From the sequence record NC_048748.1: 64,000 bases of DNA. One strand, written 5' to 3'. Below the pieces are notes generated by a model. That model saw only the letters and a program-made list of their open reading frames with translations. It was not told the DNA's origin and searched no databases. Numbering within the stretch: position 1 is the stretch's first letter; each line of letters begins with the position of its first letter. The stretch is from Escherichia phage vB_EcoS_HdH2. Shown piece after piece: positions 6,042-46,619 of this stretch. A program made the position numbers and the translations under genes.

Positions 6042-6056
6042 AGAACCAAACAATAA

Positions 6057-6090: not shown

Positions 6091-6107
6091 TTGCCTTAAA
6101 ATACAGA

Positions 6108-6140: not shown

Positions 6141-6162
6141 GTTCGAAGATTACGTGTAACTA

Positions 6163-7110
6163 TTACTTGTTACGCATATCCATGATCATTTGACCATCAT
6201 AGCCAGTGCCAACTACAGTCTGAGGTACACCACCTTGATATTTCTGAGCACGAATCATCTCAACTTCCAGTTGTTTCCAACGAATCATCTCAGGAGTAAT
6301 GGTACGTTGTAGTGCGGCGTTAGCTTCAGCTTCTTTCTTAGCTGCGTACAGTTTAGCATCTGCGTCACGTTCATTAGCAATAGCTTGGTTATTGCGAGCT
6401 TCACGATCTGCTTCTGCTTGTTTAACTTTTTGCTGTGCTTCCTGTTCAACGCGGGCAAGTTCAGCTTTCGCAGCGTTAACTTGCTCTTCACGAACTTTGG
6501 TATTCTGTACCTGTTCCATGATTACCGGTGGCAAAGTAATATCCTGAAGAAACACCTGCTTAACTGTGTAACCATATGGGCGTGCATACTCTTCAACTTC
6601 CTGTTGAATTGCAGTTTGCAATTGAGCCTGAATTTTAGCATCAAACAAATCTTGTGCTTTAGGTACAGACTTACCAAACTCACGAATAGTAGACAGTAAT
6701 TTTTCAGTTACATATTTGTCTAACGCTTGATCCTGAGTACCTGCATTAATACGGTTAATCGGTGCCTTAGAACCATCAAACTGCAACATAACAGTCAGGT
6801 CAACAGTGGATTTAAACTTATCCTGACTAGGGACCTGAAGTTTATCTAATTTTAGAGCAATATCTTTAGTACTAAAAGTATCGAAAGAAGCAAAAGGATT
6901 TACAATATGAAAGCCGGGTAATACTGGGCTAGGGTCAACCTTACCCAGGAAGGTCTGGGTTTTAACAGTACCGTCTTGAACAACAGTGTAAGAGTTAAGA
7001 GCCAGAACTAAACCTACCAAACCAACTGCAGCCCCAATACCCCAACGTTTGATATTACGCATTAATTTTTGCTCATAAGTCAGTTCTTTAGTGTTTTTAG
7101 TAGCAAACAT
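6163..7110 (-). CDS. SPFH/band-7 family membrane protein (HflC/stomatin-like)
   Basis: N-terminal TM helix (IGAAVGLVGLVLAL), SPFH-like core (YTVVQDGTVKTQTFLGKV), charged Ala/Glu/Gln-rich coiled-coil tail; RBS AAAGGAAAT; directly downstream of tRNA-Arg. Confidence 0.6.
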   Translation of the reverse strand: MFATKNTKELTYEQKLMRNIKRWGIGAAVGLVGLVLALNSYTVVQDGTVKTQTFLGKVDPSPVLPGFHIVNPFASFDTFSTKDIALKLDKLQVPSQDKFKSTVDLTVMLQFDGSKAPINRINAGTQDQALDKYVTEKLLSTIREFGKSVPKAQDLFDAKIQAQLQTAIQQEVEEYARPYGYTVKQVFLQDITLPPVIMEQVQNTKVREEQVNAAKAELARVEQEAQQKVKQAEADREARNNQAIANERDADAKLYAAKKEAEANAALQRTITPEMIRWKQLEVEMIRAQKYQGGVPQTVVGTGYDGQMIMDMRNK

Positions 7111-7144
7111 ATATTTCCTTTATTTTAGTTACAGTTAATAAAAT

Positions 7145-7219
7145 TGGCCGAGGTGACAGGATTCGAACCTGCATAAAGGAATTTAGAAGACTCCTGCCTC
7201 TCCCTTAGACTACACCCCG
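7145..7219 (-). tRNA. tRNA-Arg (anticodon UCU)
   Basis: Acceptor CGGGGTG/CACCTCG, anticodon stem-loop GGAGT-CTTCTAA-ATTCC, T-arm GCAGG-TTCGAAT-CCTGT, G-CCA end. Confidence 0.7.
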
Positions 7220-7229
7220 TTTAAGTATT

Positions 7230-8010
7230 TTTAAGAACTCTCGTAAAAACTCTTAAAAATACAGACGATACCGGGAGAGTCATAAGTCTCACTCATTAAG
7301 TATTTCAAGACAAAATACGGTAACGTCTATTATTTTCCAGTTTAAGTCAGGGTGACTTAGTGGTTATGTCCTGCGGTATATTGAGGACTCGGTTAGGCTT
7401 GGGGTCATGACTTCCCACCTTTTGCTGCTACTCAACAGGAGTTATCGCGAATTACCTGTGCTATTGTGCACCATTAGTGACATCTCTCATGTCAGCATTT
7501 CCCACTTTGTGGATAGCTTGAAAAACTACTCCGATATGGAGAAAGAACTTCACTACCCTAGAATACCTTCTAAAGTTCTTCTTTAGCCTGGACATAGTTA
7601 AATCGTAATAAAACTATTCAGCAGACTGGTTGGTTAGTCTGGAACCAACTACCGCGTGGTTTAGGCAGTGCGCAACTAACCTCGGAAGCTTTTACGTTAA
7701 AAGCATCAGTTATCCAGTTCTTACCGACCGTAGGATTCGAACCTACATCTTCCACCAGTTACGGCTTGATAATACCAATTATACTAGGACGGCAGTGTTA
7801 CTACATAAGTGATTTCCACACCCCACTATTTATAAATTAGAGAAGAGTTTAGGGGAGAGGTTTCAGACGCCTCATTTTACACGTTCTAGCCACTAACCGG
7901 GATTGCCGCCCCCTGTGTACTAGTTTTACAACTAACCCACCGACTCTATTCAACGAATCTTAGTGCTCGACGCATCTTACATTAAGACAAGTTCAGCGTA
8001 ATCGGCTCGC
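7230..8010 (-). ncRNA. promoter-driven non-coding transcript region; candidate stable RNA(s), includes a tRNA-like 3' domain at about 7720-7795
   Basis: About 780 nt without a credible ORF, lying between the early promoter at 8020-8070 and tRNA-Arg; contains canonical T-arm GTAGG-TTCGAAT-CCTAC with acceptor-like GCCGTCC/GGTCGGT but no anticodon stem, plus several local hairpins. Confidence 0.3.
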
Positions 8011-8070: not shown

Positions 8071-8512
8071 AATTAAATTCGCCAGCAATCTGAGCAGCAG
8101 TACCACCATCATAACGCCCAGAAAATTCTTCCTTAATCGCTTTCATCAGCATACCTTTTGTAATTCCAGGGTTTAGCTTAACTAATTCTGCAAAGTATTT
8201 ACGAATCTCAGTATCAGATAACTGAGGAGGCAGATACTCCTGCAACCACTTAGTTAGAATGTATTCATACTGAGCAGACTGCAAGCTATAACTATCAAGA
8301 TCTTGACCATGAAGTTTAGCTTTCATCTGGTTAATGCTTTTTAGTTGAGCTTTGAGATAAGACACAAATTGTTCAGAAGTGATGAAATCTTTATCAATAC
8401 GCTGAAGATCCCCGATTATGGTCTGATAGCTTTTAGCGACTTCTTTATCAGAACCATTAAACTTAGAATCCTGCAAAGCTCTACGCAAAACATCTAAAAT
8501 ATTCTCTTCCAT
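8069..8512 (-). CDS. GatB/YqeY-domain protein
   Basis: YqeY-like signature (YLPPQLSD, GRYDGGTAAQI); start overlaps the stop of the upstream small ORF (TAATG). Confidence 0.55.
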   Translation of the reverse strand: MEENILDVLRRALQDSKFNGSDKEVAKSYQTIIGDLQRIDKDFITSEQFVSYLKAQLKSINQMKAKLHGQDLDSYSLQSAQYEYILTKWLQEYLPPQLSDTEIRKYFAELVKLNPGITKGMLMKAIKEEFSGRYDGGTAAQIAGEFN

Positions 8513-15524: not shown

Positions 15525-16057
15525 TAATAAGTAACCAATTCCTGTACAAATCGCAGGCTGTTATCACTGTTTGCGCCAACTGCATAGACTAATCGAGTGG
15601 ATTCATAGTTATAATCCAGTATCATACTATCTAGGTGTACATCTGACTCTAGCTTCTGCTCACTAAAGATTGTAGATACAAAAGCACTTTCTATATGCCC
15701 ATGCTGATACATTTCTAGGAGAAGATTAGCTCCGCCTAGAACTACTGTCTGTTGATCTTTTAAGAATGTAGGTAATGTATCCCCAATCTTTGAAATTGGG
15801 GTATAGATACCCTGTTTAATATCATCAGGCAGAGGACGATCCGCACGAATAAAGAGGTCGGATTCTCCAATCATACGTTGCCGAACAACTTCTGGAAGTG
15901 CTAAATAAGTACCCGCACCAATGATGATGTTATCTGGATTCAACACGTCCAGTTGAGAATAGAAAGCATCTAGCTCTTCTTTGAAGGAACCCCAGGGAAG
16001 TTTACCTCGGAGGCCGAACTCTCCATTCGGCCCAACTGCATACATTGCTGTAATCAT
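15524..16057 (-). CDS. frd: dihydrofolate reductase
   Basis: DHFR-like N-terminus (MITAMYAVGPNGEFGLRGKLPW), Gly-rich loop, size 177 aa, adjacent to thyA. Confidence 0.7.
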   Translation of the reverse strand: MITAMYAVGPNGEFGLRGKLPWGSFKEELDAFYSQLDVLNPDNIIIGAGTYLALPEVVRQRMIGESDLFIRADRPLPDDIKQGIYTPISKIGDTLPTFLKDQQTVVLGGANLLLEMYQHGHIESAFVSTIFSEQKLESDVHLDSMILDYNYESTRLVYAVGANSDNSLRFVQELVTY

Positions 16058-17199
16058 AAGAAATCTCCAAATTCATTACCCAGATCTTTCAGAGTATCAG
16101 TAGAGGTCTCAGTTACCTGACCTACACGGTAGGCTGCACCAATCTGGATTTCTTGCGGAGCAGGCTGTAGAGAAGTAGTATCCAACCAGTTCATGATCCA
16201 CGGAATAGGGTTTTTGGTGATTACCGGCAGATTACTTGGCCATTCTACACCGATGTGCATAAATGCATTACGCCCCACAAAGTACAAGTATTCTTCTAGA
16301 AGTTCTGCATTCAAACCGATTAGACTACGACCTTTGAAGATGAAATGACCCCATTCAATTTCAGTTTTCAGAGTTTTCAGGAGCTGTGCTGGTGCTTTAG
16401 CCACTGCTTCATCTACCAGATCTTTGTCAAACTGCTGGAACATAATCTGGATGATTGCTTTAGACATCTGGGTGTGCAGAGCCTCATCTTTAGCGATTAA
16501 TTGCAGGTTCTTAGCAATACCTTGCAGAATATCGTTCTCTGCTAGAGCAAAAGTACATGCAAAGGATGCGTAGAACTGCATTGCTTCCAGACCGTAGATT
16601 GCAAAATAAGCATCTAACAGTTTAGCCTGAGTTTCACGCTTAACTTCAGGGAACTCAGTTTCTGGATATGTATTGTCACCACGATGATCACGTACTGCGA
16701 TGAAATACTGACCTAACTGGTACAGTTCATCGAACAGTTCAACAGAATCTGCGATACGTGCAAATGCTTCTTGGTTTTTAGTTACAGAATCAATAAATTC
16801 TGCTGGATCAGTCAGCACATTACGAATAATATTGCTATAGGCACGACTATGCAGGTCTTCGAAGTAGCTCCACTGCTTTAGCATACCTTCCAATTCTGGA
16901 CGACTTACAAGTGGCATAATAGCTGCTTCAGGCGCTCGACTGATAAAGGAATCAGTTTGAGTCTGCCATGCTAAATTCAGAAGTGTAATTTCCTGAATTT
17001 CACGTGGGAGGTTAGGCCATTGTTTCTTATCGGCTTCTAAACTGATTTCTGTCTCAGTCCAAAATTGAGAGCGTTGCAGAAGTGCCAGACGTTCTAGTTC
17101 TGGATGTGCTACACGTACATAATCTGCGATACCTAGAGAATCGCCCAGGAAAAGATCAGCGTTAGTATGATCCCAATTCAGGTTTAGTAAAGTAGTCAT
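16054..17199 (-). CDS. nrdB: ribonucleotide reductase small subunit (class Ia R2)
   Basis: 381-aa ORF with iron-ligand and tyrosyl-radical region typical of NrdB; adjacent to nrdA. Confidence 0.8.
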   Translation of the reverse strand: MTTLLNLNWDHTNADLFLGDSLGIADYVRVAHPELERLALLQRSQFWTETEISLEADKKQWPNLPREIQEITLLNLAWQTQTDSFISRAPEAAIMPLVSRPELEGMLKQWSYFEDLHSRAYSNIIRNVLTDPAEFIDSVTKNQEAFARIADSVELFDELYQLGQYFIAVRDHRGDNTYPETEFPEVKRETQAKLLDAYFAIYGLEAMQFYASFACTFALAENDILQGIAKNLQLIAKDEALHTQMSKAIIQIMFQQFDKDLVDEAVAKAPAQLLKTLKTEIEWGHFIFKGRSLIGLNAELLEEYLYFVGRNAFMHIGVEWPSNLPVITKNPIPWIMNWLDTTSLQPAPQEIQIGAAYRVGQVTETSTDTLKDLGNEFGDFL

Positions 17200-17269
17200 T
17201 GATTTTCCTCTTTCTCACTATTTCAGGAATATTATAGCAAATCAGGTAGCGATTAGCAAGTAAAATTTC

Positions 17270-17298
17270 AAAGAAAAAGGAGACCCGAAGATCTCCTT
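17270..17298 (-). terminator. rho-independent terminator after nrdA, followed by the nrdB promoter
   Basis: Stem AGGAGA/TCTCCT with 8-nt loop, followed on the minus strand by TTTTTCTTT. Confidence 0.55.
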
Positions 17299-17306
17299 GT
17301 CTTTTA

Positions 17307-19637
17307 TTACAACTGGCAACCACCAGAAGCACAACCCGCTGCTTCTTCACCCGCTCCTCCACCATTCGCAGTGTTGAAGTTTGCGTAGTACCAAGTCTTC
17401 CAACCATATTTAACAGCAGTCATGAAATCACGAACTACTACTGGGCCAGGAATGATTTCATTCTCAAACTTGGTGTAGTCGTAGTACATATTAGTACTGA
17501 TAGACTGGCTGAAGAATTTCTGCATAGTTGCTACCCATTTGATCCATTCAATACGATCCACATCATAAGCCAGTTTATAGCTCATTAAAGTTTCCCAATC
17601 AGTTGCACCTGGGGCAATTGCAATTACTTTATTCACTGCACTACCCTTGATAGATACAATCTTACGAGGTGGTTCAATAGAGTTAGTAACGCCTAACAGA
17701 ACAGAAGAACTTTCTCCCGGCATCTGCGCAGTCAGAACAGAGTTACGCATACCGTACTTCAGAATATCTGCACGCAGAGACTCCCAATCCATTTCTAGAC
17801 CTACTGATACCAGTTCATCAACAGTTTTCTTGTACGTGTCGATTACTAGTATTCCTTTAGATGGTTTAGTACGATCGAACCACTCACATGCACCTTGCTC
17901 TTTGGCTAGACGTACAGAGGCTTTATGCAGGAAGTAAGACAGTTTTTCAGCTTCACGATGGATCCAGTTACGTGCTTCAACGCCTTCATAAGCCAGACCT
18001 TCTGCTGCCATTGCACCTGCTGCGTTCATAAGGCCAATACCAACGTTACGACGTTTCTTAGCTGTATATTCCATAGTTGGGAACGGATAGTCCTGAATTT
18101 CAATGATGGTATCAACGAATTTCAGAAGAATATAGCAAGTCTTTTCCCACTCAGCCAGAGATTCCATGCGTCCTAGTACAACACCACCTAAGTTACACAG
18201 AGATACTTCACCAATATCCTCCGGCTTCATTTGATCAAGTTGTTCTTTTGTTTTATACAGTTCCGTGATATGATGGAACGGACGTGTAGGCTGAGTAATT
18301 TCAACACAAAGGTTTGTCATACGGATCGGATCAAGGAAGTTACCGTGACGATTAGATTCCCCGATGTGGTGAGCATACATACGTCCTGTTTCCATTCGGA
18401 TACGTAGCCAAGTATCTAGGATTTCTTTTGCAGAGACTTTAGGAGCTGCTGGAACTGTTTTTCCTTCGTGGTCGATCTTTGTAAGAGATGCCACACGTTT
18501 CTCCGCTGCCACATAGATTTTTTCAAATTTAGCCTCGTCATCACTATAAAACGCTTCATGAACTTCTGGGGCATAGAAGTATGACATTAGCGTAATATCT
18601 TCATTTTTCAGATAACGTTTTAACAAAAGATTGTTGAAGCTCAGAGAATAATCCATCTTATCGATTTTATTCTCATCTGTAGCACGTTGTTGCTTAACCT
18701 GCATCAACTGAATGATTTCAGGGTCAAAGTAAGGATAAGACACTGTAGCAGAACCACCACGAGTTTGCTGAGTATTGGCCTTTACTGAGCGGTCAATGTG
18801 TCGATAATATGGCAGTTTTCCGGAATGCGGGAATGCCCCATTTCGCACCGGATCAGCAATTGATCGGCTTTCAAGATGATACCCGATTCCCGCTCTGGCT
18901 GCGACCATTTTGAAGACGATGTGCTCGGCTGTGTCGATTGAATCCAATGTGTCAGTGGAATCAACGAGGCAACAACTAGCAAATCCACGGTCACTAGAGC
19001 GCAAGCCAACCAATGGCGGCGTAGGAACGTTGATTTTGTGGAGCGACATTGCATTGTAGAGATCGATTGCATCTAGAATTGTCCAGTTAGGTTGAGATAG
19101 CATCGCCATTGCCATACCCATGTAGGCAAACTGCGGGGTTTCGTAAATTTCGCCAGTTGCGATATTACGACGGGAATACTTATCAAAGAATTGTTTCAAT
19201 CCTCCGCTAGTGAAAAGACGGTCGCGATCATGGTCGATAACCTGATTCAGAGCTTCAAATTGCTCATCGGTAATCCATGCACTCATGTCTTCCCATGCAC
19301 CTACACTAACCATATGATCGTGGAAAAAGCGTAGAGAAGGTGGTTCGAAGGAATCATAAAGGCGTTTACGCATCTGCGCAAGACGTAATTCCTTTGCTGG
19401 CACGTCGTATGCTGGATTATCTTTGATAAGACTTTCAGCAGCTTTAATTAAAGCATCCATCAGAGTGTCGGAATCTACAACCCCTTTAGGCAGAGTTTTT
19501 TGAGCAGCCATAGTAATGGCTGACCAACTTACATCAACTGTTTTGCAACCATACTCTGCCCAACCATTGAGTTTTTCAGGAGCAAAGTCTTCTACAGTAC
19601 CGTCACGTTTAATTACTTTTTCGATGCGATGGCTCAT
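17307..19637 (-). CDS. nrdA: ribonucleotide reductase large subunit (class Ia R1)
   Basis: ATP-cone N-terminus (MSHRIEKVIKRDGT), catalytic Cys regions, C-terminal CxxC tail; start moved to the ATG behind AAAGGAAAG RBS and the promoter at 19665-19720. Confidence 0.85.
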   Translation of the reverse strand: MSHRIEKVIKRDGTVEDFAPEKLNGWAEYGCKTVDVSWSAITMAAQKTLPKGVVDSDTLMDALIKAAESLIKDNPAYDVPAKELRLAQMRKRLYDSFEPPSLRFFHDHMVSVGAWEDMSAWITDEQFEALNQVIDHDRDRLFTSGGLKQFFDKYSRRNIATGEIYETPQFAYMGMAMAMLSQPNWTILDAIDLYNAMSLHKINVPTPPLVGLRSSDRGFASCCLVDSTDTLDSIDTAEHIVFKMVAARAGIGYHLESRSIADPVRNGAFPHSGKLPYYRHIDRSVKANTQQTRGGSATVSYPYFDPEIIQLMQVKQQRATDENKIDKMDYSLSFNNLLLKRYLKNEDITLMSYFYAPEVHEAFYSDDEAKFEKIYVAAEKRVASLTKIDHEGKTVPAAPKVSAKEILDTWLRIRMETGRMYAHHIGESNRHGNFLDPIRMTNLCVEITQPTRPFHHITELYKTKEQLDQMKPEDIGEVSLCNLGGVVLGRMESLAEWEKTCYILLKFVDTIIEIQDYPFPTMEYTAKKRRNVGIGLMNAAGAMAAEGLAYEGVEARNWIHREAEKLSYFLHKASVRLAKEQGACEWFDRTKPSKGILVIDTYKKTVDELVSVGLEMDWESLRADILKYGMRNSVLTAQMPGESSSVLLGVTNSIEPPRKIVSIKGSAVNKVIAIAPGATDWETLMSYKLAYDVDRIEWIKWVATMQKFFSQSISTNMYYDYTKFENEIIPGPVVVRDFMTAVKYGWKTWYYANFNTANGGGAGEEAAGCASGGCQL

Positions 19638-19779
19638 TTGGCTTTCCTTTTTATAGTTATCAGGATTTAAGGAATATTCTACTTTATTATTGGTCATTAG
19701 GCAAATAAAATTTTCTGATAGAAAAGGCCCGAGTATTTTCATACCCAGGCCCTGTATATTACCAGTCTAGCTTTTTAGC

Positions 19780-20755: not shown

Positions 20756-21049
20756 AAATAACACTCCTATAGTGTACTTCGCTAACAGAGGATCAACAAA
20801 AAGATCTTGTTTATCAACTTACAAATATATTATACCAATATGTACAGTAAAAAGCAACTACAATTTTAAATAAGCCTATGATATTGCATTTAAATAAAAA
20901 ATTTGCTTGCTTTTAACGTGAGATGTGTGATACTAGATAATCATTTTATATCGCGTGCACGAGTGCGTGATTATACAATTTTTAATAGAGATTGGCAAAT
21001 AAAATTTTTTGACTCAGATCATGTTACAGAACTTTATAGTAAAATATTG

Positions 21050-21078
21050 TTGACATCCGCCCTCGAATGAGTTATAAT
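21050..21078 (+). promoter_or_regulatory. consensus sigma70 promoter (TTGACA, 17 nt, TATAAT) upstream of nrdD
   Basis: TTGACA at 21050-21055 and TATAAT at 21073-21078; RBS GAGAAGGAGAG precedes ATG 21108. Confidence 0.65.
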
Positions 21079-21107
21079 AGTAGTCTTAGTTAGAGAAGGA
21101 GAGTATA

Positions 21108-23079
21108 ATGAATCGCAATGAAGAACTAAAGTATAAAGAAATGCAGGCGTTAATTAGAAACTGCAAAGAGATTATCGAAGGGTCAGCAGATGAAGAGCTG
21201 CTGTTTAATAATGCCAATAAACCCTCAGAACGTTTCCCTACACAAAGGGATATGCTTGCAGGTGAATTGAGTAAGTATCTGATTCTAGAAGAAATGCCAA
21301 TTCAGATTCGAAATGCTCATATGATTGGGGATATTCATTTCCATGATGCTGATTATGCTGCATTAGGCATGACTAACTGTTGCCTGGTAGCTCTGGAAGA
21401 TATGTTGAAGAATGGTATGAAGGTTGGTAATGCTGAAATTAGCACTCCAAACTCTATCACTACTGCGGCGGCTATCACTGCTCAGATTATCACTCAAGTT
21501 AGCTCCCATCAGTATGGTGGTACTTCTGTAGACCGATTAGATGAAGTATTGGCTCCTTATGTTCGTAAGTCTTATGATAAGAATCATGCGTTTGCAAAAC
21601 GTTGGACTAAGGATGAAGCCAAAGCATCCGTAATGGCTACGGAGATGACTGAAAAAGAAGTCTATGATGCTTGTCAAGGTTTAGAATATGAAATCAATAC
21701 CATGTTCAACTCTAATGGTCAGAGCCCATTTATTACCTTTGGTTTTGGTCTAGGGACTTCTTGGGAAGCTCGTCTAGTACAGAAAGCAATACTGAAAGTA
21801 CGTATGGATGGTTTAGGTATCAATAAACGTACAGCTATCTTTCCGAAACTGGTGTTTGTTCTGCGTGATGGCGTAAATATGAAGCCAGGAGATGTTAATT
21901 ATGACATCAAGAAGTTAGCTATGAAATGTACTGCTGAACGTATGTATCCCGACTATATCAGCTACGATAAGGTTGTGGAAGTTACTGGTGACTATAAAGT
22001 TTCTATGGGCTGCCGTTCATTCCTAGCTGCTACAGAAGATGGTGAAACTGCAGGTCGTAATAACTTAGGTGTTGTTTCTGTAAACTTGCCTAGAATTGCT
22101 ATCGAAGCTGAAGGGAATATTGATCTATTCTTTGATTTGCTTGAGCTACGTGTGGATACAGCGTTAAAAGCATTGGAGTGGAGAGTTGATCGCTTAAAAT
22201 ACATTCAAGCTAAAGCCGCGCCCATCCTCTATATGTCAGGAGCCTTTGGGTTACGCTTGGGGCCTGATGAATATGTATTCGATCATTTCTATAACCGTGC
22301 TTTTATGCAGGTCTCGGACATTGTGTCTACATCTTTGCCAAACATGAACTGTAGCATTTCATGGCAACCAATATACCCTAGAGATACAGAAGCACCGTTC
22401 TGTATCTCTAGGGTATATTGGTTGCCATGAAATGCTACAGTTCATGTTTGGCAAAGATGTAGACACAATGTCCGAGACCTGCATAAAGTTTGTTCAGCGT
22501 GTATTGCAGTACATGCGAGATAGAGTCGATCAGAAGAAGGAAGAAACTAAGTTAGGTTATAGCCTGTATGCTACACCATCAGAATCCCTATGTGACCGTT
22601 TTTGTCGTCTAGACCGGGAATATTTCCCGGAGCATGAAGATATTCTGTCCAAAGGATACTACACTAACTCTCACCACCTTGATGTGGAACGTAAAGTTGC
22701 TCCTAACGTGAAATTTGATTATGAATCTAACTTTACTCCTATTGCTTCTGGTGGGTGTATTTCCTATGTAGAACTACCGGATATGAAACGATTCCCAGAT
22801 GCACTGGAATGGGTTATTAATTATGCTGCTAGTAAAGTTCATTACTTCGGTATTAATACTCCAGTGGATTCTTGTGGTAAATGTGGATTCTTAGGTGAAA
22901 CAATAGCATCCGAAGATGGGTTTAAGTGCCCTATCTGTGGTAATCATGACCCAGAAACTCTTGAAGTAACTCGTCGAGTTTGTGGATATCTTGGAAATCC
23001 AGGTGCTCGTCCATTTAACCCTGGCAAACAGCACGAGGTTATGGGCAGGGTGAAACACCAGGATATTCGAGCTAAATAA
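21108..23079 (+). pseudogene. nrdD: anaerobic ribonucleoside-triphosphate reductase gene, reading frame interrupted at 22391-22487 by an inverted duplication
   Basis: ORF 21108-22430 carries the NrdD N-terminal and core regions; ORF 22432-23079 carries the glycyl-radical motif RVCGYLG and a CxxC/CPICG zinc ribbon; deleting 22391-22487 (97 nt) joins the two in frame into about 624 codons. Confidence 0.75.
22302..22487. repeat. perfect inverted repeat: two 89-bp arms (22302-22390 and 22399-22487) around an 8-nt loop AGCACCGT
   Basis: Right arm is the exact reverse complement of the left arm as read base by base; left arm is in-frame nrdD coding sequence, right arm introduces a TGA. Confidence 0.9.
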
Positions 23080-23177: not shown

Positions 23178-23537
23178 ATGGAACTAAAGCCATTTATTGT
23201 TGTATCTAAGTTAGGACATTATCACTTAGGAGTAGATACTATTCAGGAAGCTATTTTTGCTGCTACAGGTGATTACTCATTACTAGAAGGTATTGGATAT
23301 CCTACATTACTAGGTGACTTTGTAGAGCAAGAATTAGATATTACTGTTTATAATCCTATATATGAAGAACCTGAAGACTTAAAAGAGACCCTAGAATTTG
23401 TATATTGGAACCACCTGCAAGTGTTTAATGTTACCTCTAATGGCACAGAGGATTTCTCTTCTGTTATTAAACATCATATTAAGCAGGTTTACTACGATTA
23501 TTTCTATGAGGATATTGGAACGGAGCTAAAAGTATGA
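23178..23537 (+). CDS. hypothetical protein (about 119 aa)
   Basis: Start at ATG (MELKPF) behind GAGAGGAGAG RBS, downstream of the promoter at 23122. Confidence 0.55.
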   Translation: MELKPFIVVSKLGHYHLGVDTIQEAIFAATGDYSLLEGIGYPTLLGDFVEQELDITVYNPIYEEPEDLKETLEFVYWNHLQVFNVTSNGTEDFSSVIKHHIKQVYYDYFYEDIGTELKV

Positions 23538-32178: not shown

Positions 32179-32367
32179 ATGAAAGTAACACTTCCAAAAA
32201 TTCAAGCAAAGCTAAATCTAGTATCGAATGCTAGAAATAACTATCTAGATAACTTTGGTGGAATCAACGATAAAGCGTACAAAGATGCGTGGTTGAAAGA
32301 AGCGCAAGAGTTAGCCGATCTCATTGCTCAGTATAATAAAGAACTACGGGTAGAAATGAATGACTAA
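32179..32367 (+). CDS. hypothetical protein (62 aa)
   Basis: Start at ATG (MKVTLPK) behind AGAGGA RBS. Confidence 0.45.
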   Translation: MKVTLPKIQAKLNLVSNARNNYLDNFGGINDKAYKDAWLKEAQELADLIAQYNKELRVEMND

Positions 32368-33331
32368 TGTAAAAGACTTTATTAAACGCTGTCAAGAAGC
32401 ATATTATCAAGGCATGTCTTTAATCTCTGATGAAGAATATGATCGCCTGGTAAAACGCTTCCCATTAGAAGAAGAGATTGGGCCTAAGGGTGATATTCCA
32501 CATCTGTACCGTATGTATTCTTTACAGAAAGTTTATTATAATCGTGGAGATAAACCTCCGTTTAACCCATTAGGTCAGGTAGAAACTGATAAGTTAGATG
32601 GTTGTGCGATTTCTCTGCTATATATTAATGGCGAATTTGTTCAAGCACTAACTCGTGGTAATGGTATTCTAGGAAATGATGTCACAAGCAACGTAAGATT
32701 GCTGAACATCCCCAAAAAGATTTCCCAAAAAGTACCTACTCAAATCACTGGTGAAGTTCTAATTACAAAAGAAGTAGAAAATAAACGTAACTTTGCCTCT
32801 GGTGCTATTAACCTCAAAGATAGCGATGATTTCGTACAACGTATCGGGGAAGGTGGTTTAATCTTCGTTGCATATGGTATCCAGTGTTCTGCTGAATCTG
32901 TAGGTATTACAGAAGCGTATTTAAAAGATATGCTTTGGCTGGAGAATGAGAACTTCTTAACAGTTGTTAATGTGCGTTCCTTCTTTAAATGGATTCCTAC
33001 TGATGGTAAAGTTGTTCGTATTAATGACAACAACAAATTCTTCCGAGAAGGCTGGACTAATAAATTCCCTCGTGGAGCATTCGCTATTAAAGAGGATGAA
33101 GAAGGCGAGATTACAACTCTTACTAAAGTTGAGTGGCAGGTAGGGGCTTCTGGTAAAGTAACTCCAGTTGGTTATTTCGAACCGGTAATTATTGATGATG
33201 CTACGATTGTTAAAGCGACTCTCAATAACGTTGATTATATTAACTCTCTCGATCTAGAGATCGGTTGCCAGATTCGAGTGATTCGTGCTGGTGGTGTAAT
33301 CCCGTGCATAGTAGAGCGAGTATACGATTAA
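32360..33331 (+). CDS. ligA: NAD-dependent DNA ligase, N-terminal adenylation/OB part (separate ORF)
   Basis: LigA-like Ia region and KxDG adenylation motif (TDKLDGCAISLLY); ends at a stop at 33331. Confidence 0.7.
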   Translation: MTNVKDFIKRCQEAYYQGMSLISDEEYDRLVKRFPLEEEIGPKGDIPHLYRMYSLQKVYYNRGDKPPFNPLGQVETDKLDGCAISLLYINGEFVQALTRGNGILGNDVTSNVRLLNIPKKISQKVPTQITGEVLITKEVENKRNFASGAINLKDSDDFVQRIGEGGLIFVAYGIQCSAESVGITEAYLKDMLWLENENFLTVVNVRSFFKWIPTDGKVVRINDNNKFFREGWTNKFPRGAFAIKEDEEGEITTLTKVEWQVGASGKVTPVGYFEPVIIDDATIVKATLNNVDYINSLDLEIGCQIRVIRAGGVIPCIVERVYD

Positions 33332-33533: not shown

Positions 33534-34310
33534 ATGAAAATCGAAATTCCAACACAATGTCCCTCTTGTGGTTCTAAGCTAGATCTTGTCAACGGACAAT
33601 TATTCTGTCGTAATAAGTCCAACTGTCCAGCGCAATCAAGTAAGTTAATTGAGAACTTCTGTACAAAAATGAAGTTAAAGGGCTTTGGCCCGAAAACTAT
33701 TGAGAAGCTGGAGCTGACGAAGATTTCAGAACTATTTTACCTAACCGAAGAAGATTTGGTTAGAGCCGTGGGTAGCAAGGTTGCCGCTAAGTTAATTAGC
33801 GAATTAAATACTAAAGTTCGCGGAGACATTGACTTTGGTTCAGTTCTCGGTTCTTTAGGAATCCCTCTAATTGGAGAGGTTGCAGCAAAGAAATTATCCC
33901 AAAATTGCACTAGCTTTCAAGATGTGAGAGCTGACGGCAAGGCTGGAGAAAACTATAAAGCCTGGCTAAATTCCCCACAAGGCAAGGATGTTATCGAATT
34001 ACCGTGGAAATTCTCAAATGGTATTAAGGGTGCTAAAGCTGAGGTCATCACTGATGGTCTAGTAGCCCAACCAAACGGAATAACGGTATGTATTACCGGA
34101 TCTTTGCAAGATTTTGCAAATCGAACGGATGCAACAAACTATTTAGAAGGTCTAGGATATACGGTTAAGAAATCCGTTACTAAAGACGTCAAATACCTAA
34201 TCTGTGAGGATGAATCGAAGCGTTCTTCCTCATCTTATAAGAAAGCCGAAACGAATGGGATAGAAATCCTGTCGATTAAAGAACTATTGGAGAAAAATAA
34301 TAATGTCTAA
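33534..34310 (+). CDS. ligA: NAD-dependent DNA ligase, C-terminal Zn-finger/HhH/BRCT part (separate ORF)
   Basis: Zinc-finger cysteines CPSCGSKL...CRNKSNC, HhH-like region, BRCT-like C-terminus. Confidence 0.7.
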   Translation: MKIEIPTQCPSCGSKLDLVNGQLFCRNKSNCPAQSSKLIENFCTKMKLKGFGPKTIEKLELTKISELFYLTEEDLVRAVGSKVAAKLISELNTKVRGDIDFGSVLGSLGIPLIGEVAAKKLSQNCTSFQDVRADGKAGENYKAWLNSPQGKDVIELPWKFSNGIKGAKAEVITDGLVAQPNGITVCITGSLQDFANRTDATNYLEGLGYTVKKSVTKDVKYLICEDESKRSSSSYKKAETNGIEILSIKELLEKNNNV

Positions 34311-35085: not shown

Positions 35086-35120
35086 CTAAGGGGAGGGGGC
35101 TATGCTCCTTCCCCTTTTTG
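35086..35120 (+). terminator. rho-independent terminator
   Basis: Hairpin AAGGGGAGGG-loop-CCTTCCCCTT followed by TTTTG. Confidence 0.65.
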
Positions 35121-35152
35121 CATTTAGAAGGCACGAAAGCGTGCAAAGGAGA

Positions 35153-36625
35153 ATGACCTTGTTTAACGTGCAAGCTGTAGTGTTGAAGATGCTTCTAGCT
35201 TCCGAACAGAAGCAAATAGCATTGGAAACATTCTCAAAACTGCATAAAGATCATTTTAATGACGCTTTCTCCTCAATTTACCAAGCCGTCCAGAATTATT
35301 ATAAAAAATATAACACAATGCCGTCCATTGACGCACTTATGCTTGAAGCTAATAGGAACGCCCGCCTTTCTCAAGCTCTAGTCGTCTTAGCTAACACTCA
35401 AATTCCAGAAGTGAGCATGGAACAGGCACTTGAAGTCCTAGAAGCCGAATATACACAGGATTTATTCCTGAAGCTTCTAGAAACAGACGTGCTTCAAGAT
35501 TTAACAATGCTGGATCAGGGAGAAATTCTCAACCGAGTTGCCTCCCTTCACTTAAAATTAGAAGAGAAAGTAACGAATACTGGAAAAGTATTCAACGCAG
35601 ATAACATGCGTATTTTCCAGAGAGAAGAAGATACCAAACTGAACTTAATCGCTCTTGGTATTTGTAATGAGTTCGACGCTCAAATCGGTTTAGCTCGCAC
35701 AGAAACGTTACTGCTTGGTGGTTGGCGTGGTACTGGTAAATCCATTATCTGTTCAAACATACAGGTTCAGCAATATTTGAATGGGGATATTGCTCCATAC
35801 TTCTCAATTGAGATGAAAGAACATGAAGTATTTAGACGTAATCTAGCCATGTTAGCTGGTGTATCAGCATTAGCAATGCGTAATAATACTCTAGAAGGTG
35901 CACCTCTATTGAGATTAGCCAGAACTAGAGCTAGAATGTTTAATGGGGGTGAAGAGCTTTTCGACAACTTCGTTAAACAGTACACAATGGCTAAGATGAG
36001 TGATTTCTACGATATGGAAAGTAAGCTAATAGAAGGGTATGAGCTACATACTCCTATGATTATTGTTTATGATCCTGAGCTGTCTATTACAACAGTTGAC
36101 GTAGAATTAAATAAATTAGTTGCTAGATATGGGGATAAAGTTACAGTAGCTTTATTGGACTATATTAACCAAACCCGACTTCCAGATTCTAAAACCATTG
36201 ATATGTATGACTGGAAAGAACAGATGGTTGTTAGCTCGTCTTTCAAATCTATCTGTCAGAAACATAACGTGGCTGGTGTAGCTCCTTACCAGATCGATCA
36301 AGATGGTAGAACACGTATGTCAAAAGGGATTCTTGATTCCGCAGACATGGCTGCTAATCTTAATGCTGCAAAAGCTGATAATGGTCAAGGTGCTATTATG
36401 TTTGACTTCGTTAAGACCCGTTCTTCTGATAGCGTGAAGTTTATGCCTAAAATGAACTGGGAAACCCTGCGGATGGATAACACTACCAACCTAGCAATGG
36501 AAGATATATCTCAAATGGAAGCTGAGTTCGTTATCCCTATTGAGAAGGATAAGCCAGCTCAATCTAAACGTGCTAAGAAAGACAAAGCTGAAAATTCAAC
36601 AGGTGAACAGGCCAGCGATATATGA
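35153..36625 (+). CDS. P-loop replicative-helicase-like protein (DnaB/RecA-fold)
   Basis: Walker A GGWRGTGKS and Walker B-like IIVYDPE; start at ATG (MTLFNV) behind AAAGGAGA RBS, because the upstream ORF-track codons overlap the terminator. Confidence 0.5.
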   Translation: MTLFNVQAVVLKMLLASEQKQIALETFSKLHKDHFNDAFSSIYQAVQNYYKKYNTMPSIDALMLEANRNARLSQALVVLANTQIPEVSMEQALEVLEAEYTQDLFLKLLETDVLQDLTMLDQGEILNRVASLHLKLEEKVTNTGKVFNADNMRIFQREEDTKLNLIALGICNEFDAQIGLARTETLLLGGWRGTGKSIICSNIQVQQYLNGDIAPYFSIEMKEHEVFRRNLAMLAGVSALAMRNNTLEGAPLLRLARTRARMFNGGEELFDNFVKQYTMAKMSDFYDMESKLIEGYELHTPMIIVYDPELSITTVDVELNKLVARYGDKVTVALLDYINQTRLPDSKTIDMYDWKEQMVVSSSFKSICQKHNVAGVAPYQIDQDGRTRMSKGILDSADMAANLNAAKADNGQGAIMFDFVKTRSSDSVKFMPKMNWETLRMDNTTNLAMEDISQMEAEFVIPIEKDKPAQSKRAKKDKAENSTGEQASDI

Positions 36626-37155
36626 TAACACAGGAACGACTAAAAGAACTGTTTGACTACTCCCCAGAGACTGGGGAGTTTATTAGAAAAGTATCTAGAG
36701 GCAGCCAGAAAGCCGGGAGTATAGTAACTAGAAAGGATTCAAACGGTTATATAATTATCGGTATAGATGGTAGGGATTATAAAGCCCATCGTATGGCCTT
36801 CCTATTTATGGAAAACACGTTACCTGAAAAAGTAGACCATGTAAATAGAATACCCTTTGATAACCGATGGTGTAATCTAAGAGACGCCACAGCCCAGGAA
36901 AATAGTAGAAATAAAACCGCATGTAGTAAGTCTGGATATTTGGGAGTTGCTTGGGATATAGAAAAACAAAGATGGAGAGTTCAAGTAAGAGACTCTAATA
37001 GCACTCTTAAAAATGGTGGCAGATTTAAGTATGAAGAGCTAGAGCTAGCTGTAAATTCAGCAAATATATTAAGGGCTAAGTTACATGGAGAACGTGCTGT
37101 TATAGAAATTTTTGATACATCTAATTATCCTTCGCTGGAGGAGTTAAATTCATGA
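36622..37155 (+). mobile_element. HNH homing endonuclease with AP2-like DNA-binding domain
   Basis: HNH motif (AHRMAFL...VDHVNRIPFDNRWCNLR) and AP2-like segment YLGVAWDIEKQRWRVQV; AT-rich codon usage; inserted between helicase and primase. Confidence 0.65.
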
Positions 37156-43822: not shown

Positions 43823-44800
43823 ATGAGAATATTATTTAGTGCTGATCATCATATCAAACTAGGACAAGATAAAGTTCCAAAGGAATGGCAGAAGCGTCGC
43901 TTCCTGATGCTAGGAGAACGGTTAAATGATATATTCCATAATCATAACTGTGATCTTCATATTGCTGGTGGTGATATACTTGACGTTGCCGACCCGTCGT
44001 CAGAAGAAATAGAACTGCTTGAACAGTTCATGTCAAGACTCGACCATCCAGGCAAAATCTTTACTGGAAATCATGAAATGTTAACTAAAACCATTTCATG
44101 TCTATATCATTATGCAGGAGTTATTAATAAAGTAACGAGTGGTAAGTGGGAAGTAATTACTAAACCATATCGTTCCCCTGAATTTGATATTGTTCCATAT
44201 GACGAAATCCATAAATCTAAGTGGAAACCATCTGAATCAAAACTATGTTTCACACATGTTCGTGGTGAAATCCCTCCACATGTAAAACCAGAAATTGATC
44301 TAACTAAGTATAACTGTTATGATACTGTAATTGCTGGCGATTTACATTCTTATACTAATAGCCAGACTATCGGATCTACTAGACTTCTCTACCCAGGGTC
44401 TCCATTAACTACATCGTTCCATAGAGAACGCACAAAAGGTACAAATGGTTGCTTTATCATTGATACCGACACATTAAAAGTAGAATGGATTGAACTAGGG
44501 GATTTACCACAACTGATTCGTAAAACAATCGGAGCTGGTGAAGAGATGGAACCTAGTGATTATGATCGTGTAGTCTATGAAGTTACTGGTGACGTTGTTC
44601 AATTAAAGTCTATTAAAGACTCTGATTTATTAGATAAGAAGATTAACCATCGAGTTACTAAAGATGCTAAGTTAAATCTTGTTGATCTTGATATGTTAGG
44701 TGAACTTGAACTTTACTTCCGTGAAGTCGAGAAGCTATCTCAAGGCGACATTGATAGAATCTTGGCTAGAGCTGCGAAATATGTCAAAGATTACAATTAA
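43823..44800 (+). CDS. Mre11/SbcD-like nuclease (calcineurin-like phosphoesterase)
   Basis: Phosphoesterase motifs SADHH, GGDILD, GNHE. Confidence 0.7.
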   Translation: MRILFSADHHIKLGQDKVPKEWQKRRFLMLGERLNDIFHNHNCDLHIAGGDILDVADPSSEEIELLEQFMSRLDHPGKIFTGNHEMLTKTISCLYHYAGVINKVTSGKWEVITKPYRSPEFDIVPYDEIHKSKWKPSESKLCFTHVRGEIPPHVKPEIDLTKYNCYDTVIAGDLHSYTNSQTIGSTRLLYPGSPLTTSFHRERTKGTNGCFIIDTDTLKVEWIELGDLPQLIRKTIGAGEEMEPSDYDRVVYEVTGDVVQLKSIKDSDLLDKKINHRVTKDAKLNLVDLDMLGELELYFREVEKLSQGDIDRILARAAKYVKDYN

Positions 44801-46619
44801 GACACTAAAATTTAGTAACGTTATGTCTTACGGTAAGGACATCGTAATTCATTTCGATAAGAATCCAGTTACTCAACTAATTGGTGGCAATGGGCTAGGG
44901 AAATCCACCATCGCTACGGTTATCGAGGAATTGTTTTATAACAAGAACTCACGTGGTATTAAGAAAGATGCTCTGTTCTCTTGGAATGCCCCTAAGAAAG
45001 AATACGATATGCACGCTTACTTTTCAAAAGATGATGATGAGTATGAGCTGCATAAAGTAGTTAAGTCAACTGCTAAAGTAACGTTGATTAAGAATGGGGA
45101 AGATATTAGTGGACATACGGCAACCCAAACATACAAGATAATTGAAGAGATTATGGGTGGTGACTTTCAAACATTCACCAAACTGATTTATCAATCAGTG
45201 GGTTCCAACCTAGATTTTCTAAAAGCAACAGATGCAACACGTAAGGCTTTTCTTGTTAACTTGTTCAATCAAGAGCAATACAAAGAAATGTCGGAAACTG
45301 TTAAGGCTGACCGTAAAGAAATAGCAAATACCTTAAATAATTTGCAGGGCCAGATGGCTGTAATTACGAAAATCCTTAATGGGAAAAATAATCTCGGGAG
45401 TTTACAGGAACCGGTTGAAGTTCCTGAGTTTGATGAAGAACCATTAGCACAAGAACTTACTGAATCGAAAATTAAGGCGGCATTAGCCAAGTCTCAAGAG
45501 GCTAATATTACTAAATTGCGTAATTTGGACAAAGCTGTACAAGTTGCCGAACAATCTTTCGAGCCTTTCAAAAATTTGCCCGCGCCCACTGACCAAAACG
45601 AAGAGATCTCAAGTGTTACGCGTGACCTAACGATTGTGACCTCACGTGCGGGCGAAGTTAAGAAACGTTATCAGAAGTTCAAGCAAGAAGCTTCAAATAC
45701 TGAATGCCCTACTTGTGGTACTCATCTGGATACAACTGCTGCTCAAAAAGCAATGGATATGGCTAGAATAGAATATGATCCTCTGTTCAAAGAGAAGCAA
45801 TCTCTTGAAGCTAAGCTAGAACAGTTGAAGAAAGAACAACTTGAGTACGTTGCGTATACTAGAGCAAAGGATGCTTTGGATAAAGCGGTGGTAGCTAGAG
45901 ACGAGTTCAAAAATTCAATGAGTGATGCTTCTTTTGAAGAACTCAATGTGCAAATCCTACAGGTGCAAATCCGACAATTAGAACAGGCAATCGCTGATGG
46001 ACGTTCTAAGGTTGCAATTGCCAAAGAGCATAATGCAAATGTCGAATTAGCTAATGCAAAATATAAAGCGAAAATAGAACAGATTGAGAAAGCTGAAGCA
46101 GAAATGTCTGAGATTACTTCCAAACTGAATGGAGTATCAGAAGCTGTAGCTGATCTTGATATTCTAATTGCTGCTTTGAAAAATCTGGTGGGATATAAAT
46201 TAGAGCATAGTGTGAAAGTATTTGAAGAACTAATTAATAAATACCTTTCCATTATGACTGGAGGTAAATTCGCACTTGGATTTGAACTTGATGAAACAAA
46301 ATTACAAGTAGTAATCTTCAATGATGGAAACCGTACCAGTATGGAGAACTGCTCTACTGGTCAGCAAAGTCGAATTAATCTAGCAACATTGTTAGCGATT
46401 CGTATGCTGTTAACATCTATTAGTAAAGTTAATATTAATCTTCTATTCCTTGATGAAGTAATTAGCTTTATTGATACGAAAGGACTTGATACTCTCGTTG
46501 AACTATTAAATGAGGAAGAAAGTCTAAATTCTATCATTGTTTCTCATGGGCATACGCATCCATTAGCTCATAAGATTACTGTCAAAAAAGATGCAGAAGG
46601 ATTTTCCTACTTAGAATAA
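44781..46619 (+). CDS. Rad50/SbcC-like ATPase with zinc-hook coiled coil
   Basis: Walker A GGNGLGKST, CPTCG hook inside a long coiled coil, signature STGQQSR, Walker B LLFLDEV; start at ATG (MSKITIK) overlapping the Mre11-like gene. Confidence 0.75.
   Translation: MSKITIKTLKFSNVMSYGKDIVIHFDKNPVTQLIGGNGLGKSTIATVIEELFYNKNSRGIKKDALFSWNAPKKEYDMHAYFSKDDDEYELHKVVKSTAKVTLIKNGEDISGHTATQTYKIIEEIMGGDFQTFTKLIYQSVGSNLDFLKATDATRKAFLVNLFNQEQYKEMSETVKADRKEIANTLNNLQGQMAVITKILNGKNNLGSLQEPVEVPEFDEEPLAQELTESKIKAALAKSQEANITKLRNLDKAVQVAEQSFEPFKNLPAPTDQNEEISSVTRDLTIVTSRAGEVKKRYQKFKQEASNTECPTCGTHLDTTAAQKAMDMARIEYDPLFKEKQSLEAKLEQLKKEQLEYVAYTRAKDALDKAVVARDEFKNSMSDASFEELNVQILQVQIRQLEQAIADGRSKVAIAKEHNANVELANAKYKAKIEQIEKAEAEMSEITSKLNGVSEAVADLDILIAALKNLVGYKLEHSVKVFEELINKYLSIMTGGKFALGFELDETKLQVVIFNDGNRTSMENCSTGQQSRINLATLLAIRMLLTSISKVNINLLFLDEVISFIDTKGLDTLVELLNEEESLNSIIVSHGHTHPLAHKITVKKDAEGFSYLE

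What the first reader, a model, noticed from the sequence alone, without database searches (positions are those of the whole stretch)
22302..22487. Perfect 89-bp inverted repeat with 8-nt loop splits the anaerobic ribonucleotide reductase gene
Positions 22399-22487 are the exact reverse complement of 22302-22390, separated by AGCACCGT. The left arm is in-frame nrdD coding sequence; the loop plus right arm (97 nt) introduce a stop and a +1 frame offset, so the gene appears as two ORFs (21108-22430, 22432-23079). Removing 22391-22487 restores a single ORF of about 624 codons that still ends with the glycyl-radical and zinc-ribbon motifs. A perfect palindrome this long is unexpected in a natural genome. 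It could be a real template-switch (fold-back) inverted duplication that inactivated a gene dispensable under aerobic growth, or an assembly or library artefact.
Basis: seen in the sequence. Interest (0 to 1): 0.8.

Follow-up and report, generated by a model that had tools for sequence, protein, structure and literature searches.

The report
One-off inverted duplication breaking phage nrdD
A 97-base backwards copy of the neighbouring sequence sits inside the anaerobic ribonucleotide reductase gene of one T5-like phage record (vB_EcoS_HdH2) and no other; it is either junk left from genome finishing or a fresh knockout mutation, not a designed genetic element.

Summary
The palindrome is real in the sequence. 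The arms are 22302-22391 and 22398-22487, 90 nt each and 100% complementary, with a 6-nt spacer. It is the only long hairpin in the window, and it splits nrdD into 440-aa and 215-aa ORFs.

Alignment to relatives shows the right arm is native nrdD. The extra 97 nt are the left arm plus loop (22302-22398). Removing them gives a 624-aa NrdD that differs at only 3 residues from each of three relatives.

Of the 97 inserted nt, 94 are an exact reverse complement of native 22297-22301 plus 22399-22487. They carry this genome's own SNP.

The window is Escherichia phage vB_EcoS_HdH2 (MK373796). None of about 390 T5-like records, and no contig collection searched, has either junction. All 55 other genes compared are intact.

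The source paper describes manual re-linearisation of a single contig, and the locus tags show the contig was reverse-complemented.

Best guess: finishing artefact at a contig-end join (about 0.55). Rival: genuine polymerase template-switch null mutation (about 0.38). Only reads or PCR can decide. Interest is low.

The parts
21108..22301 (+). Native 5' part of nrdD (codons 1-398)
   Evidence: Colinear with the intact 1875-nt nrdD of S130, T5_ev219 and Elw.
22302..22395 (+). Inverted copy, 94 nt. It is the exact reverse complement of native 22297-22301 plus 22399-22487, and forms the left arm plus AGCAC.
   Evidence: the reverse complement of the insert, from its 4th base on, is found exactly in the reconstructed native sequence starting at 22297. 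It is absent from all relatives.
22396..22398 (+). 3-nt junction filler CGT. If the copy is read as extending to 22294 with one mismatch, 2 of these 3 nt are templated.
   Evidence: The expected reverse-complement copy would read GGT.
22399..22487 (+). Right arm. This is native nrdD codons 399-428 and the source of the inverted copy.
   Evidence: 102 of 103 nt match many relatives on the gene strand. It encodes SVSLGYIGCHEMLQFMFGKDVDTMSETCIK, identical to S130. SNP 22485 A (C in the three relatives aligned, and no relative matches this stretch perfectly) is mirrored as T at 22304.
22488..23079 (+). Native 3' part of nrdD, including the glycyl-radical motif RVCGYLG and the four-cysteine zinc ribbon.
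   Evidence: (PF13597 2-562/562, PF01228).
21108..22430 (+). ORF1 as annotated in GenBank (QBQ81197.1, 440 aa). The last 42 residues are junk translated from the insert and an out-of-frame read of the right arm.
22432..23079 (+). ORF2 as annotated (QBQ81198.1, 215 aa). It is an N-terminally truncated NrdD C-terminal fragment starting at an internal Met.
22294..22298 (+). ACCGT, a 5-nt direct repeat whose partner is at 22394-22398. Slippage between the two copies would delete 100 nt and leave an in-frame loss of Ala399.
   Evidence: Read directly from the sequence.
16057..19742 (-). Intact aerobic class Ia RNR genes nrdB and nrdA. This is the context that makes loss of nrdD tolerable in aerobic culture.
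   Evidence: full-length matches at 99.3-99.5% amino-acid identity to Elw.
43823..46619 (+). D12 (Mre11-like phosphoesterase) and D13 (Rad50/SbcC-like ATPase) genes. This is the phage's own SbcCD-type nuclease, expected to attack long hairpins.
   Evidence: Metallophos, SMC_N, AAA_15, weak SbcC_Walker_B. One search gives the source name 'Recombination endonuclease, subunit D12'. One search shows sbcd/SbcC notes on the HASG4 orthologues.

Best explanation
The 97 nt at 22302-22398 are not part of the phage's working genome. They are a fold-back fragment: 94 nt copied from the opposite strand of the immediately adjacent sequence, plus 3 junction bases.

My proposed route into the deposited consensus of vB_EcoS_HdH2 (MK373796) is through finishing:
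1. The assembler's single contig began with a short palindromic overhang made from a chimeric fold-back read.
2. The redundant contig ends were trimmed by alignment and joined, so the genome could be re-linearised at its physical termini.
3. The trim stopped exactly where direct similarity begins, at 22399. The non-matching 97-nt overhang was therefore kept between the true neighbours 22301 and 22399.
4. Polishing with abundant genuine reads then made both arms perfect.

Shown here: the anatomy of the insert, its uniqueness to this record, the clean state of the rest of the assembly, and the manual finishing in the source pipeline. Inferred: that the contig join lay at this site. As written, the gene is a pseudogene only on paper.
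For: 1. Private to one record. About 390 T5-like records carry nrdD, 378 of them with near-full-length matches, and none contains the loop or either junction. The junction strings are absent from viral, metagenome and genome contig collections. Both ORF products occur on a single NCBI contig only, with no Logan or ENA copy.
2. The native neighbours 22301 and 22399 are kept with no base lost or duplicated. Alignment-guided trimming of overlapping contig ends would produce exactly this.
3. The source paper (PMC6563267) used PacBio HGAP3 or SPAdes at k=55. It says a single contig 'was linearized' at read-end pile-ups. Locus tags 'HdH2rev_' show the contig was also reverse-complemented. So there was hand finishing, with one contig-end join somewhere in the genome.
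4. The arms are 100% identical and carry the record's own SNP. The only imperfect part is the loop, which genuine reads could not polish.
5. Fold-back and inverted-repeat chimeric molecules are documented library products for short and long reads (PMC7531576; titles and abstracts of PMC12870357 and PMC13141652).
6. In E. coli, a 246-bp interrupted palindrome is cleaved by SbcCD at every replication cycle (PMC3315005). The phage also encodes its own D12/D13 homologues. A real 186-bp near-perfect palindrome should therefore be costly.
7. My own rough estimate, not computed: a complex inverted duplication arising and fixing within the few dozen generations since isolation is rarer than a finishing error.
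Against: - The rest of the assembly is clean. All 55 other Elw genes compared are intact, with no homopolymer-frameshift pattern.
- The first 100 kb of sister phage HASG4, from the same study, has no such hairpin, so this is not a systematic pipeline product.
- A graph-consistent assembler cannot place the left arm after 22301 unless reads contain that junction, so the artefact route needs a manual or heuristic join at exactly this site. I cannot show that it happened here.
- Library fold-back chimeras normally sit at under 5% of reads.
- The loop is too short to hold a SMRTbell adapter (own knowledge).
- The lesion lies in a gene that is dispensable in aerobic culture, as a surviving real mutation would.
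Confidence: 0.55

Rival explanations
1. Genuine null mutation in the sequenced phage stock, made by polymerase template switching at a replication fork.

Proposed steps:
1. A nascent minus-sense strand copying leftwards reached 22301.
2. It jumped to the opposite strand a few bases ahead (AA microhomology at 22293-22294).
3. It copied about 94-96 nt rightwards to 22487.
4. It returned to its original template with 1-nt homology.

The result is a 97-nt inverted duplication that frameshifts nrdD. It would be neutral during aerobic propagation, because nrdA and nrdB are intact, and would have been fixed by plaque-purification bottlenecks.
For: - The insert is a copy of the sequence immediately across the insertion point, and the source overlaps the site by 5 nt.
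- Both native flanks are fully retained.
- The copy carries the genome's own allele.
- This is the classic geometry of a switch-and-return event and needs no human error.
- The assembly is otherwise clean.
- The sister genome from the same pipeline lacks such features.
- The hit gene is dispensable aerobically, with nrdA and nrdB intact.
- T5 DNA polymerase is strongly strand-displacing (own knowledge, not tested), a property that favours strand switching.
Against: - Microhomology at the junctions is only 1-2 nt, and 3 nt (or one mismatch) remain unexplained.
- No natural inverted repeat of 7 nt or more lies at the junction to nucleate a switch.
- Palindromes of comparable size are SbcCD substrates, and the phage has its own D12/D13 nuclease.
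- Such events are very rare.
- The lesion is seen in one record only.
Confidence: 0.38
2. In-vitro DNA-level chimera that reached majority frequency, for example a polymerase strand-switch during low-input amplification, so that the reads truly contain it but the phage does not.
For: One library option in the paper starts from 0.5 ng DNA with 13 PCR cycles. Inverted chimeras are documented library products.
Against: 0.5 ng of a 120-kb genome is still millions of molecules. Such artefacts stay at a few percent and would not win the consensus at 393x coverage.
Confidence: 0.04
3. Functional element. Candidates considered: a regulatory hairpin, a translational-bypass (hop) gap, an intron-like insertion, or a 'coding palindrome' that still yields active NrdD.
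For: CGT codons lie 100 nt apart, at 22296-22298 and 22396-22398. They could in principle serve as take-off and landing sites, giving NrdD lacking Ala399. Perfect coding palindromes do exist in Nematomorpha mitochondria (PMC6649704).
Against: - There is no conservation: zero of about 390 relatives have it.
- The insert has no sequence of its own, since 94 of 97 nt are copied from the neighbouring exon.
- No Rfam family matches at the site.
- The codon after the putative take-off site is GCT, not a stop.
- The left arm does not encode NrdD sequence, and the frame is broken.
Confidence: 0.02

Closest known systems
Contig-end palindromic (fold-back) junk retained at a circularisation or re-linearisation join
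   Same: It is found in a single deposited record. It is a perfect reverse-complement copy of the adjacent sequence with a short odd loop. The native flanks abut exactly. The pipeline involved hand trimming, reverse-complementing and re-linearising one contig.
   Different: I could not see the original contig or the reads. The first 100 kb of the sister genome from the same pipeline is clean. The loop holds no adapter.
Replication template-switch (strand-switch, FoSTeS/MMBIR-like or quasipalindrome-type) inverted duplications
   Same: A templated insertion is copied from the opposite strand right at the switch point, followed by a return to the original template. Microhomology is very short, and there is a few-nt untemplated or mis-templated junction.
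   Different: Classical quasipalindrome events are nucleated by a pre-existing imperfect inverted repeat and are usually much shorter. No such repeat lies at this junction.
SbcCD-sensitive long palindromes studied in E. coli and lambda (Leach laboratory; PMC3315005)
   Same: It is a near-perfect palindrome of 186 bp with a 6-bp centre, of the same order as the 85-bp and 246-bp interrupted palindromes that form hairpins and are processed by SbcCD.
   Different: Those palindromes were engineered. Here it would sit in a lytic phage that carries its own Mre11/Rad50-type D12/D13 genes, and its stability is untested.
Coding palindromes in Nematomorpha mitochondrial genes (PMC6649704)
   Same: Long perfect inverted repeats lie inside a protein-coding gene.
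   Different: In Nematomorpha both arms encode conserved protein in frame, the feature recurs across species, and the proteins work. Here one arm is antisense junk, the frame is broken, and the feature is private to one record.
Group I intron in phage T4 nrdD (sunY)
   Same: It is an interruption of a phage nrdD gene.
   Different: There is no intron RNA model hit, no sequence of its own, and no splice-competent structure. It is simply a reverse copy of the neighbouring exon.

Membership tests
Class III anaerobic ribonucleotide reductase NrdD (Pfam PF13597) | Full-length match to the NRDD profile | tested here: met
   After removing 22302-22398: PF13597 E=4.4e-172, profile positions 2-562 of 562. 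Matches PDB 9d3x_A at 2.6e-188 and T4 NrdD 1h78_A at 4.8e-177.
Class III anaerobic ribonucleotide reductase NrdD (Pfam PF13597) | C-terminal glycyl-radical motif and four-cysteine zinc site | tested here: met
   PF01228 Gly_radical at residues 495-599. RVCGYLG and CGKCGF...CPICG are present and align to the same motifs in 9d3x_A.
Class III anaerobic ribonucleotide reductase NrdD (Pfam PF13597) | Single uninterrupted reading frame | tested here: not met
   In the window the gene is split into 440-aa and 215-aa ORFs by the 97-nt insert. All three relatives examined in detail have one 624-codon ORF, and 378 of about 390 relatives match near full length with no insert.
Template-switch (fold-back) inverted duplication | Inserted DNA is a reverse-complement copy of sequence adjacent to, or spanning, the insertion point | tested here: met
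   94 of 97 nt are the exact reverse complement of native 22297-22301 plus 22399-22487.
Template-switch (fold-back) inverted duplication | Original sequence retained on both sides (switch and return) | tested here: met
   Relatives join 22301 to 22399 with no base missing or duplicated.
Template-switch (fold-back) inverted duplication | Microhomology or a pre-existing inverted repeat at the switch points | tested here: inconclusive
   Only 1-2 nt (AA, A) at the junctions. There is no natural inverted repeat of 7 nt or more at the junction, and 3 nt are unexplained.
Template-switch (fold-back) inverted duplication | Present in the DNA of the organism (reads or amplicon spanning arm-loop-arm) | not testable with these tools
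   MK373796 is not in the phage collection. Its proteins are on one NCBI contig only, with no Logan or ENA assembly.
Assembly or finishing artefact at a contig-end join | Confined to one deposited assembly, with no independent occurrence | tested here: met
   Absent from about 390 related records and from viral, metagenome and genome contig collections. Single contig.
Assembly or finishing artefact at a contig-end join | The pipeline included manual joining, trimming or re-orientation of contig ends | tested here: met
   [quoted passage not shown]'. 'HdH2rev_' locus tags.
Assembly or finishing artefact at a contig-end join | The original contig ends map to this site, and reads join 22301 directly to 22399 | not testable with these tools
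   No reads or primary contigs are available.
Assembly or finishing artefact at a contig-end join | Similar artefacts in other genomes from the same pipeline | tested here: not met
   No perfect hairpin with arms of at least 16 nt in the first 100 kb of HASG4 (MK373797). Only one sister genome was examined, and only partly.
Self-splicing intron or homing-endonuclease insertion in nrdD | Intron RNA structure or an endonuclease ORF, with sequence of its own | tested here: not met
   No Rfam hit at the site; only tRNAs are found in the window. The insert is a copy of the adjacent exon.
Translational bypass (T4 gene 60 type) | Matched take-off and landing codons, a stop codon right after take-off, and conservation | tested here: not met
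   CGT codons do occur 100 nt apart, but the next codon is GCT, not a stop. The gap is absent from all relatives.
Coding palindromes (Nematomorpha type) | Both arms translated in frame into conserved protein | tested here: not met
   The left arm translates to FMQVSDIVSTSLPNMNCSISWQPIYPRDT, unrelated to NrdD, and the frame shifts by +1.

The most novel reading that the evidence does not exclude
The palindrome is physically present in vB_EcoS_HdH2. On this reading it is a freshly arisen fork strand-switch inverted duplication, made by a strongly strand-displacing phage replisome with almost no microhomology. It is stably carried as a 186-bp near-perfect palindrome, even though both the host (SbcCD) and the phage itself (D12/D13) make hairpin nucleases. 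That would give a natural, ready-made system for measuring palindrome tolerance and template switching in T5-like phages. It would also provide a clean nrdD-null phage for testing what the anaerobic reductase contributes in the gut.
Probability: 0.35. Interest if true: 0.4.

Novelty: not a real feature. Interest (0 to 1): 0.15.

Why it matters
The main value is as a data-quality flag.
- GenBank MK373796, its RefSeq copy and UniRef (QBQ81197.1/YP_009843418.1/A0A482N3T3 and QBQ81198.1/YP_009843419.1) present two 'NrdD' proteins.
- One of them ends in 42 residues of junk, and the record implies that this phage lacks a working anaerobic reductase.
- Anyone using the record for comparative or pangenome work on Tequintavirus should treat nrdD as intact until shown otherwise, reconstructing it by deleting 22302-22398.

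If the lesion proves real, it is a neat but isolated example of a known mutational class, a template-switch inverted duplication. It would also be a usable natural nrdD knockout. It would not be a new kind of element.

Tried and rejected
1. T5 nick sites as the trigger for a fold-back. The major-nick consensus R/GCGCRGG (PMC3517423) has four matches in the window. That is no more than chance, and the nearest (23809) is 1.3 kb away. Rejected.
2. Join of two different phages (mixed lysate chimera). Identity to three relatives is the same to the left and right of the junction: 97.7/97.1, 97.2/96.6 and 96.0/96.6%. Rejected.
3. Low-quality long-read assembly. Indels against Elw are intergenic or compensated, and all 55 other genes compared are intact. 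Rejected.
4. Intron or RNA element. No Rfam family matches at the site. Rejected.
5. Translational bypass and coding palindrome. Defining features are not met.
6. A natural inverted repeat nucleating the switch. The only repeat of 7 nt or more nearby is CTATAACC/GGTTATAG (22289-22296 and 22555-22562), which is not at the junction. Not supported.
7. Independent assembly of the raw reads. Exact look-ups of ORF1, ORF2, the downstream gene and phoH in the gene-position index found nothing. The cluster look-up shows NCBI-only sources. No help.
8. Fetching MK373796 itself. It is not in the phage collection.
9. Per-phage sequencing technology. It is not given in the paper's held supplements.
10. De Bruijn inverted-loop theory (PMC9528984). 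It shows that assemblers handle palindromic paths, but it does not describe this artefact. I also reasoned that a graph-consistent path cannot place the left arm after 22301, so a purely algorithmic origin was set aside in favour of a finishing-step origin.
11. EASG3 and the last 20 kb of HASG4 were not scanned.

Full report
**1. The observation**

Positions 22302-22391 and 22398-22487 are 90 nt each and 100% complementary, separated by GCACCG.

It cannot be chance:
- It is the only inverted repeat above 26 nt in the window.
- It folds at -113 kcal/mol as single-stranded DNA, against -20 for shuffles, z = -32.6.
- A scan for perfect hairpins (arms of at least 16 nt, loop of at most 60 nt) finds none in 44 kb of phage Elw and none in the first 100 kb of phage HASG4.

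The gene it sits in reads as two ORFs, 21108-22430 (440 aa) and 22432-23079 (215 aa), offset by one frame.

**2. What the window is**

The window is a T5-like phage (Tequintavirus). Its nrdD is 97.5% identical to Salmonella phage S130 and 97% to T5_ev219. A 24-kb stretch is 96.4% identical to phage Elw.

Exact protein look-ups identify the source as Escherichia phage vB_EcoS_HdH2. It is a 120,120-bp record in which the two ORFs are annotated as QBQ81197.1 and QBQ81198.1, copied into RefSeq and UniRef. The accession is MK373796, from Korf et al. 2019 (PMC6563267).

**3. Which arm is native**

- About 390 related records carry nrdD and 378 match it nearly full length. In all of them the query splits into two pieces that skip 97 nt.
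- A probe across the loop and right arm matches relatives from 22398 onward on the gene's own strand, with 102 of 103 nt matching.
- Direct alignment shows relatives running ...TATAACCGTGCT|TCTGTATCTCTAGGG..., that is, from 22301 straight to 22399.
- Deleting 22302-22398 gives a 624-aa protein that differs at only three residues from each of S130, T5_ev219 and Elw, none near the junction.
- The restored protein is a complete NrdD: PF13597 covers positions 2-562 of 562, and the Gly_radical domain is present. The right arm encodes the conserved motif RASVSLGYIGCHE, which aligns with RATVSLGYIGLYE in solved structure 9d3x_A.

So the intruder is the left arm plus loop.

**4. Anatomy of the insert**

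- 94 of the 97 nt (22302-22395) are the exact reverse complement of native 22297-22301 plus 22399-22487. The copied segment therefore spans the insertion point by 5 nt.
- The remaining three bases are CGT. A continued copy would read GGT, so 2 of 3 match.
- Both native flanks are retained to the base.
- The arm carries a SNP of this genome, 22485 A where the three aligned relatives have C. It is mirrored as T at 22304, so the copy came from this genome's own allele.
- Junction microhomology is only 1-2 nt, and no natural inverted repeat lies at the junction.
- A 5-nt direct repeat ACCGT flanks the left arm, at 22294-22298 and 22394-22398.

**5. Mechanism in outline**

The geometry is that of a polymerase that left its template, copied about 94-96 nt of the opposite strand starting right across from where it stopped, and came back. 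Equivalently, it is a fold-back chimeric molecule.

That settles what kind of object this is. It does not settle where the event happened: in the phage, in a tube, or, for the left junction, in a text editor.

**6. Real or artefact**

Evidence pointing to an artefact:
- The structure is private to one deposited assembly. It is absent from all related records and from viral, metagenome and genome contig collections. Both aberrant proteins are known from one NCBI contig only.
- The source paper assembled with HGAP3 or SPAdes at k=55, obtained one contig per phage, and then 'linearized' it at read-end pile-ups. The 'HdH2rev_' locus tags show the contig was also reverse-complemented. Somewhere in the genome there is therefore a hand-made join of contig ends.
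- If the contig began with a short fold-back overhang, and the redundant end was trimmed where direct similarity begins, the result would be exactly what is seen: the true neighbours 22301 and 22399 separated by the unmatched overhang.
- Genuine reads would polish both arms to perfection, but they could not correct the loop.
- Fold-back and inverted chimeras are documented library products.
- A real palindrome of this size should be attacked by SbcCD and by the phage's own D12/D13 nuclease.

Evidence pointing to a real lesion:
- The rest of the assembly is clean. All 55 other Elw genes compared are intact, with no frameshift pattern.
- The first 100 kb of sister phage HASG4, from the same study, has no such hairpin.
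- Library chimeras stay below about 5% of reads.
- A graph-consistent assembler could not create the left junction by itself.
- The hit gene is one the phage can lose in aerobic culture, since nrdA and nrdB are intact.

I weigh this at about 0.55 finishing artefact, 0.38 genuine template-switch mutation, 0.04 in-vitro majority chimera and 0.02 functional element. The tools here cannot decide, because neither the reads nor the record itself are available.

**7. Alternatives excluded**

- T5 nick sites: the consensus is not near the junction.
- A chimera of two phages: identity to relatives is equal on both sides.
- An intron: no Rfam hit at the site.
- A gene-60-type bypass: there is no stop after the take-off codon and no conservation.
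- A Nematomorpha-type coding palindrome: the left arm does not encode NrdD.

**8. Verdict**

The object is ordinary in kind: a fold-back inverted duplication, most likely left over from finishing and otherwise a one-off knockout. The practical consequence is a flawed public annotation of nrdD in MK373796 and its RefSeq copy. Interest is low unless PCR shows that the palindrome is really in the phage.

Noticed in passing
window 36622-37155 (+): A 177-aa HNH endonuclease ORF (PF13392) sits between the replicative helicase (35102-36625) and primase (37152-38042) genes, overlapping each by 4 nt. Its protein cluster includes T5 (T5p118) and several relatives, but the ORF is absent from Elw and HASG4, where helicase and primase abut. 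It looks like a free-standing homing endonuclease with a presence/absence polymorphism.
   Followed up: partly
window 32360-33325 and 33534-34307 (+): The NAD-dependent DNA ligase is encoded as two separate ORFs about 200 nt apart. Elw, HASG4 and other relatives are annotated the same way ('DNA ligase x2'), so this is a lineage feature and not damage to this record.
   Followed up: no
window 878-7793 (-): A cluster of 12 tRNA genes on the minus strand, interspersed with small ORFs (Rfam). This matches the T5-like tRNA region annotated in Elw and HASG4.
   Followed up: no
window 23178-23537 (+) and 8075-8512 (-): Two small genes are only 49% and 45% identical in protein to their positional counterparts in Elw, while flanking genes are 97-100% identical. 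These appear to be mosaic replacement cassettes. The first lies immediately downstream of nrdD.
   Followed up: no
window about 20800-21100 and about 48000: Cumulative GC skew has its minimum at the divergent phoH/nrdD intergenic region and its maximum near 48 kb. This tracks the switches in transcription direction. The nrdD lesion lies about 1.3 kb from the first switch.
   Followed up: no
window 43823-46619 (+): The D12 (Mre11-like) and D13 (Rad50/SbcC-like) genes overlap by about 100 nt as listed ORFs. In some relatives in the cluster (for example STWB21, 612 aa) the protein clustered with D12 is much longer, which suggests differing gene calls or fusions across records.
   Followed up: no
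window 22359-22484 (-): Because of the palindrome, a 41-aa minus-strand ORF encodes almost the same peptide (MQVSDIVSTSLPNMNCSISWQPIYPRDTE...) as the junk tail of ORF1 on the plus strand. This is a mirror effect with no biological meaning, but it could be mis-called as a gene.
   Followed up: yes
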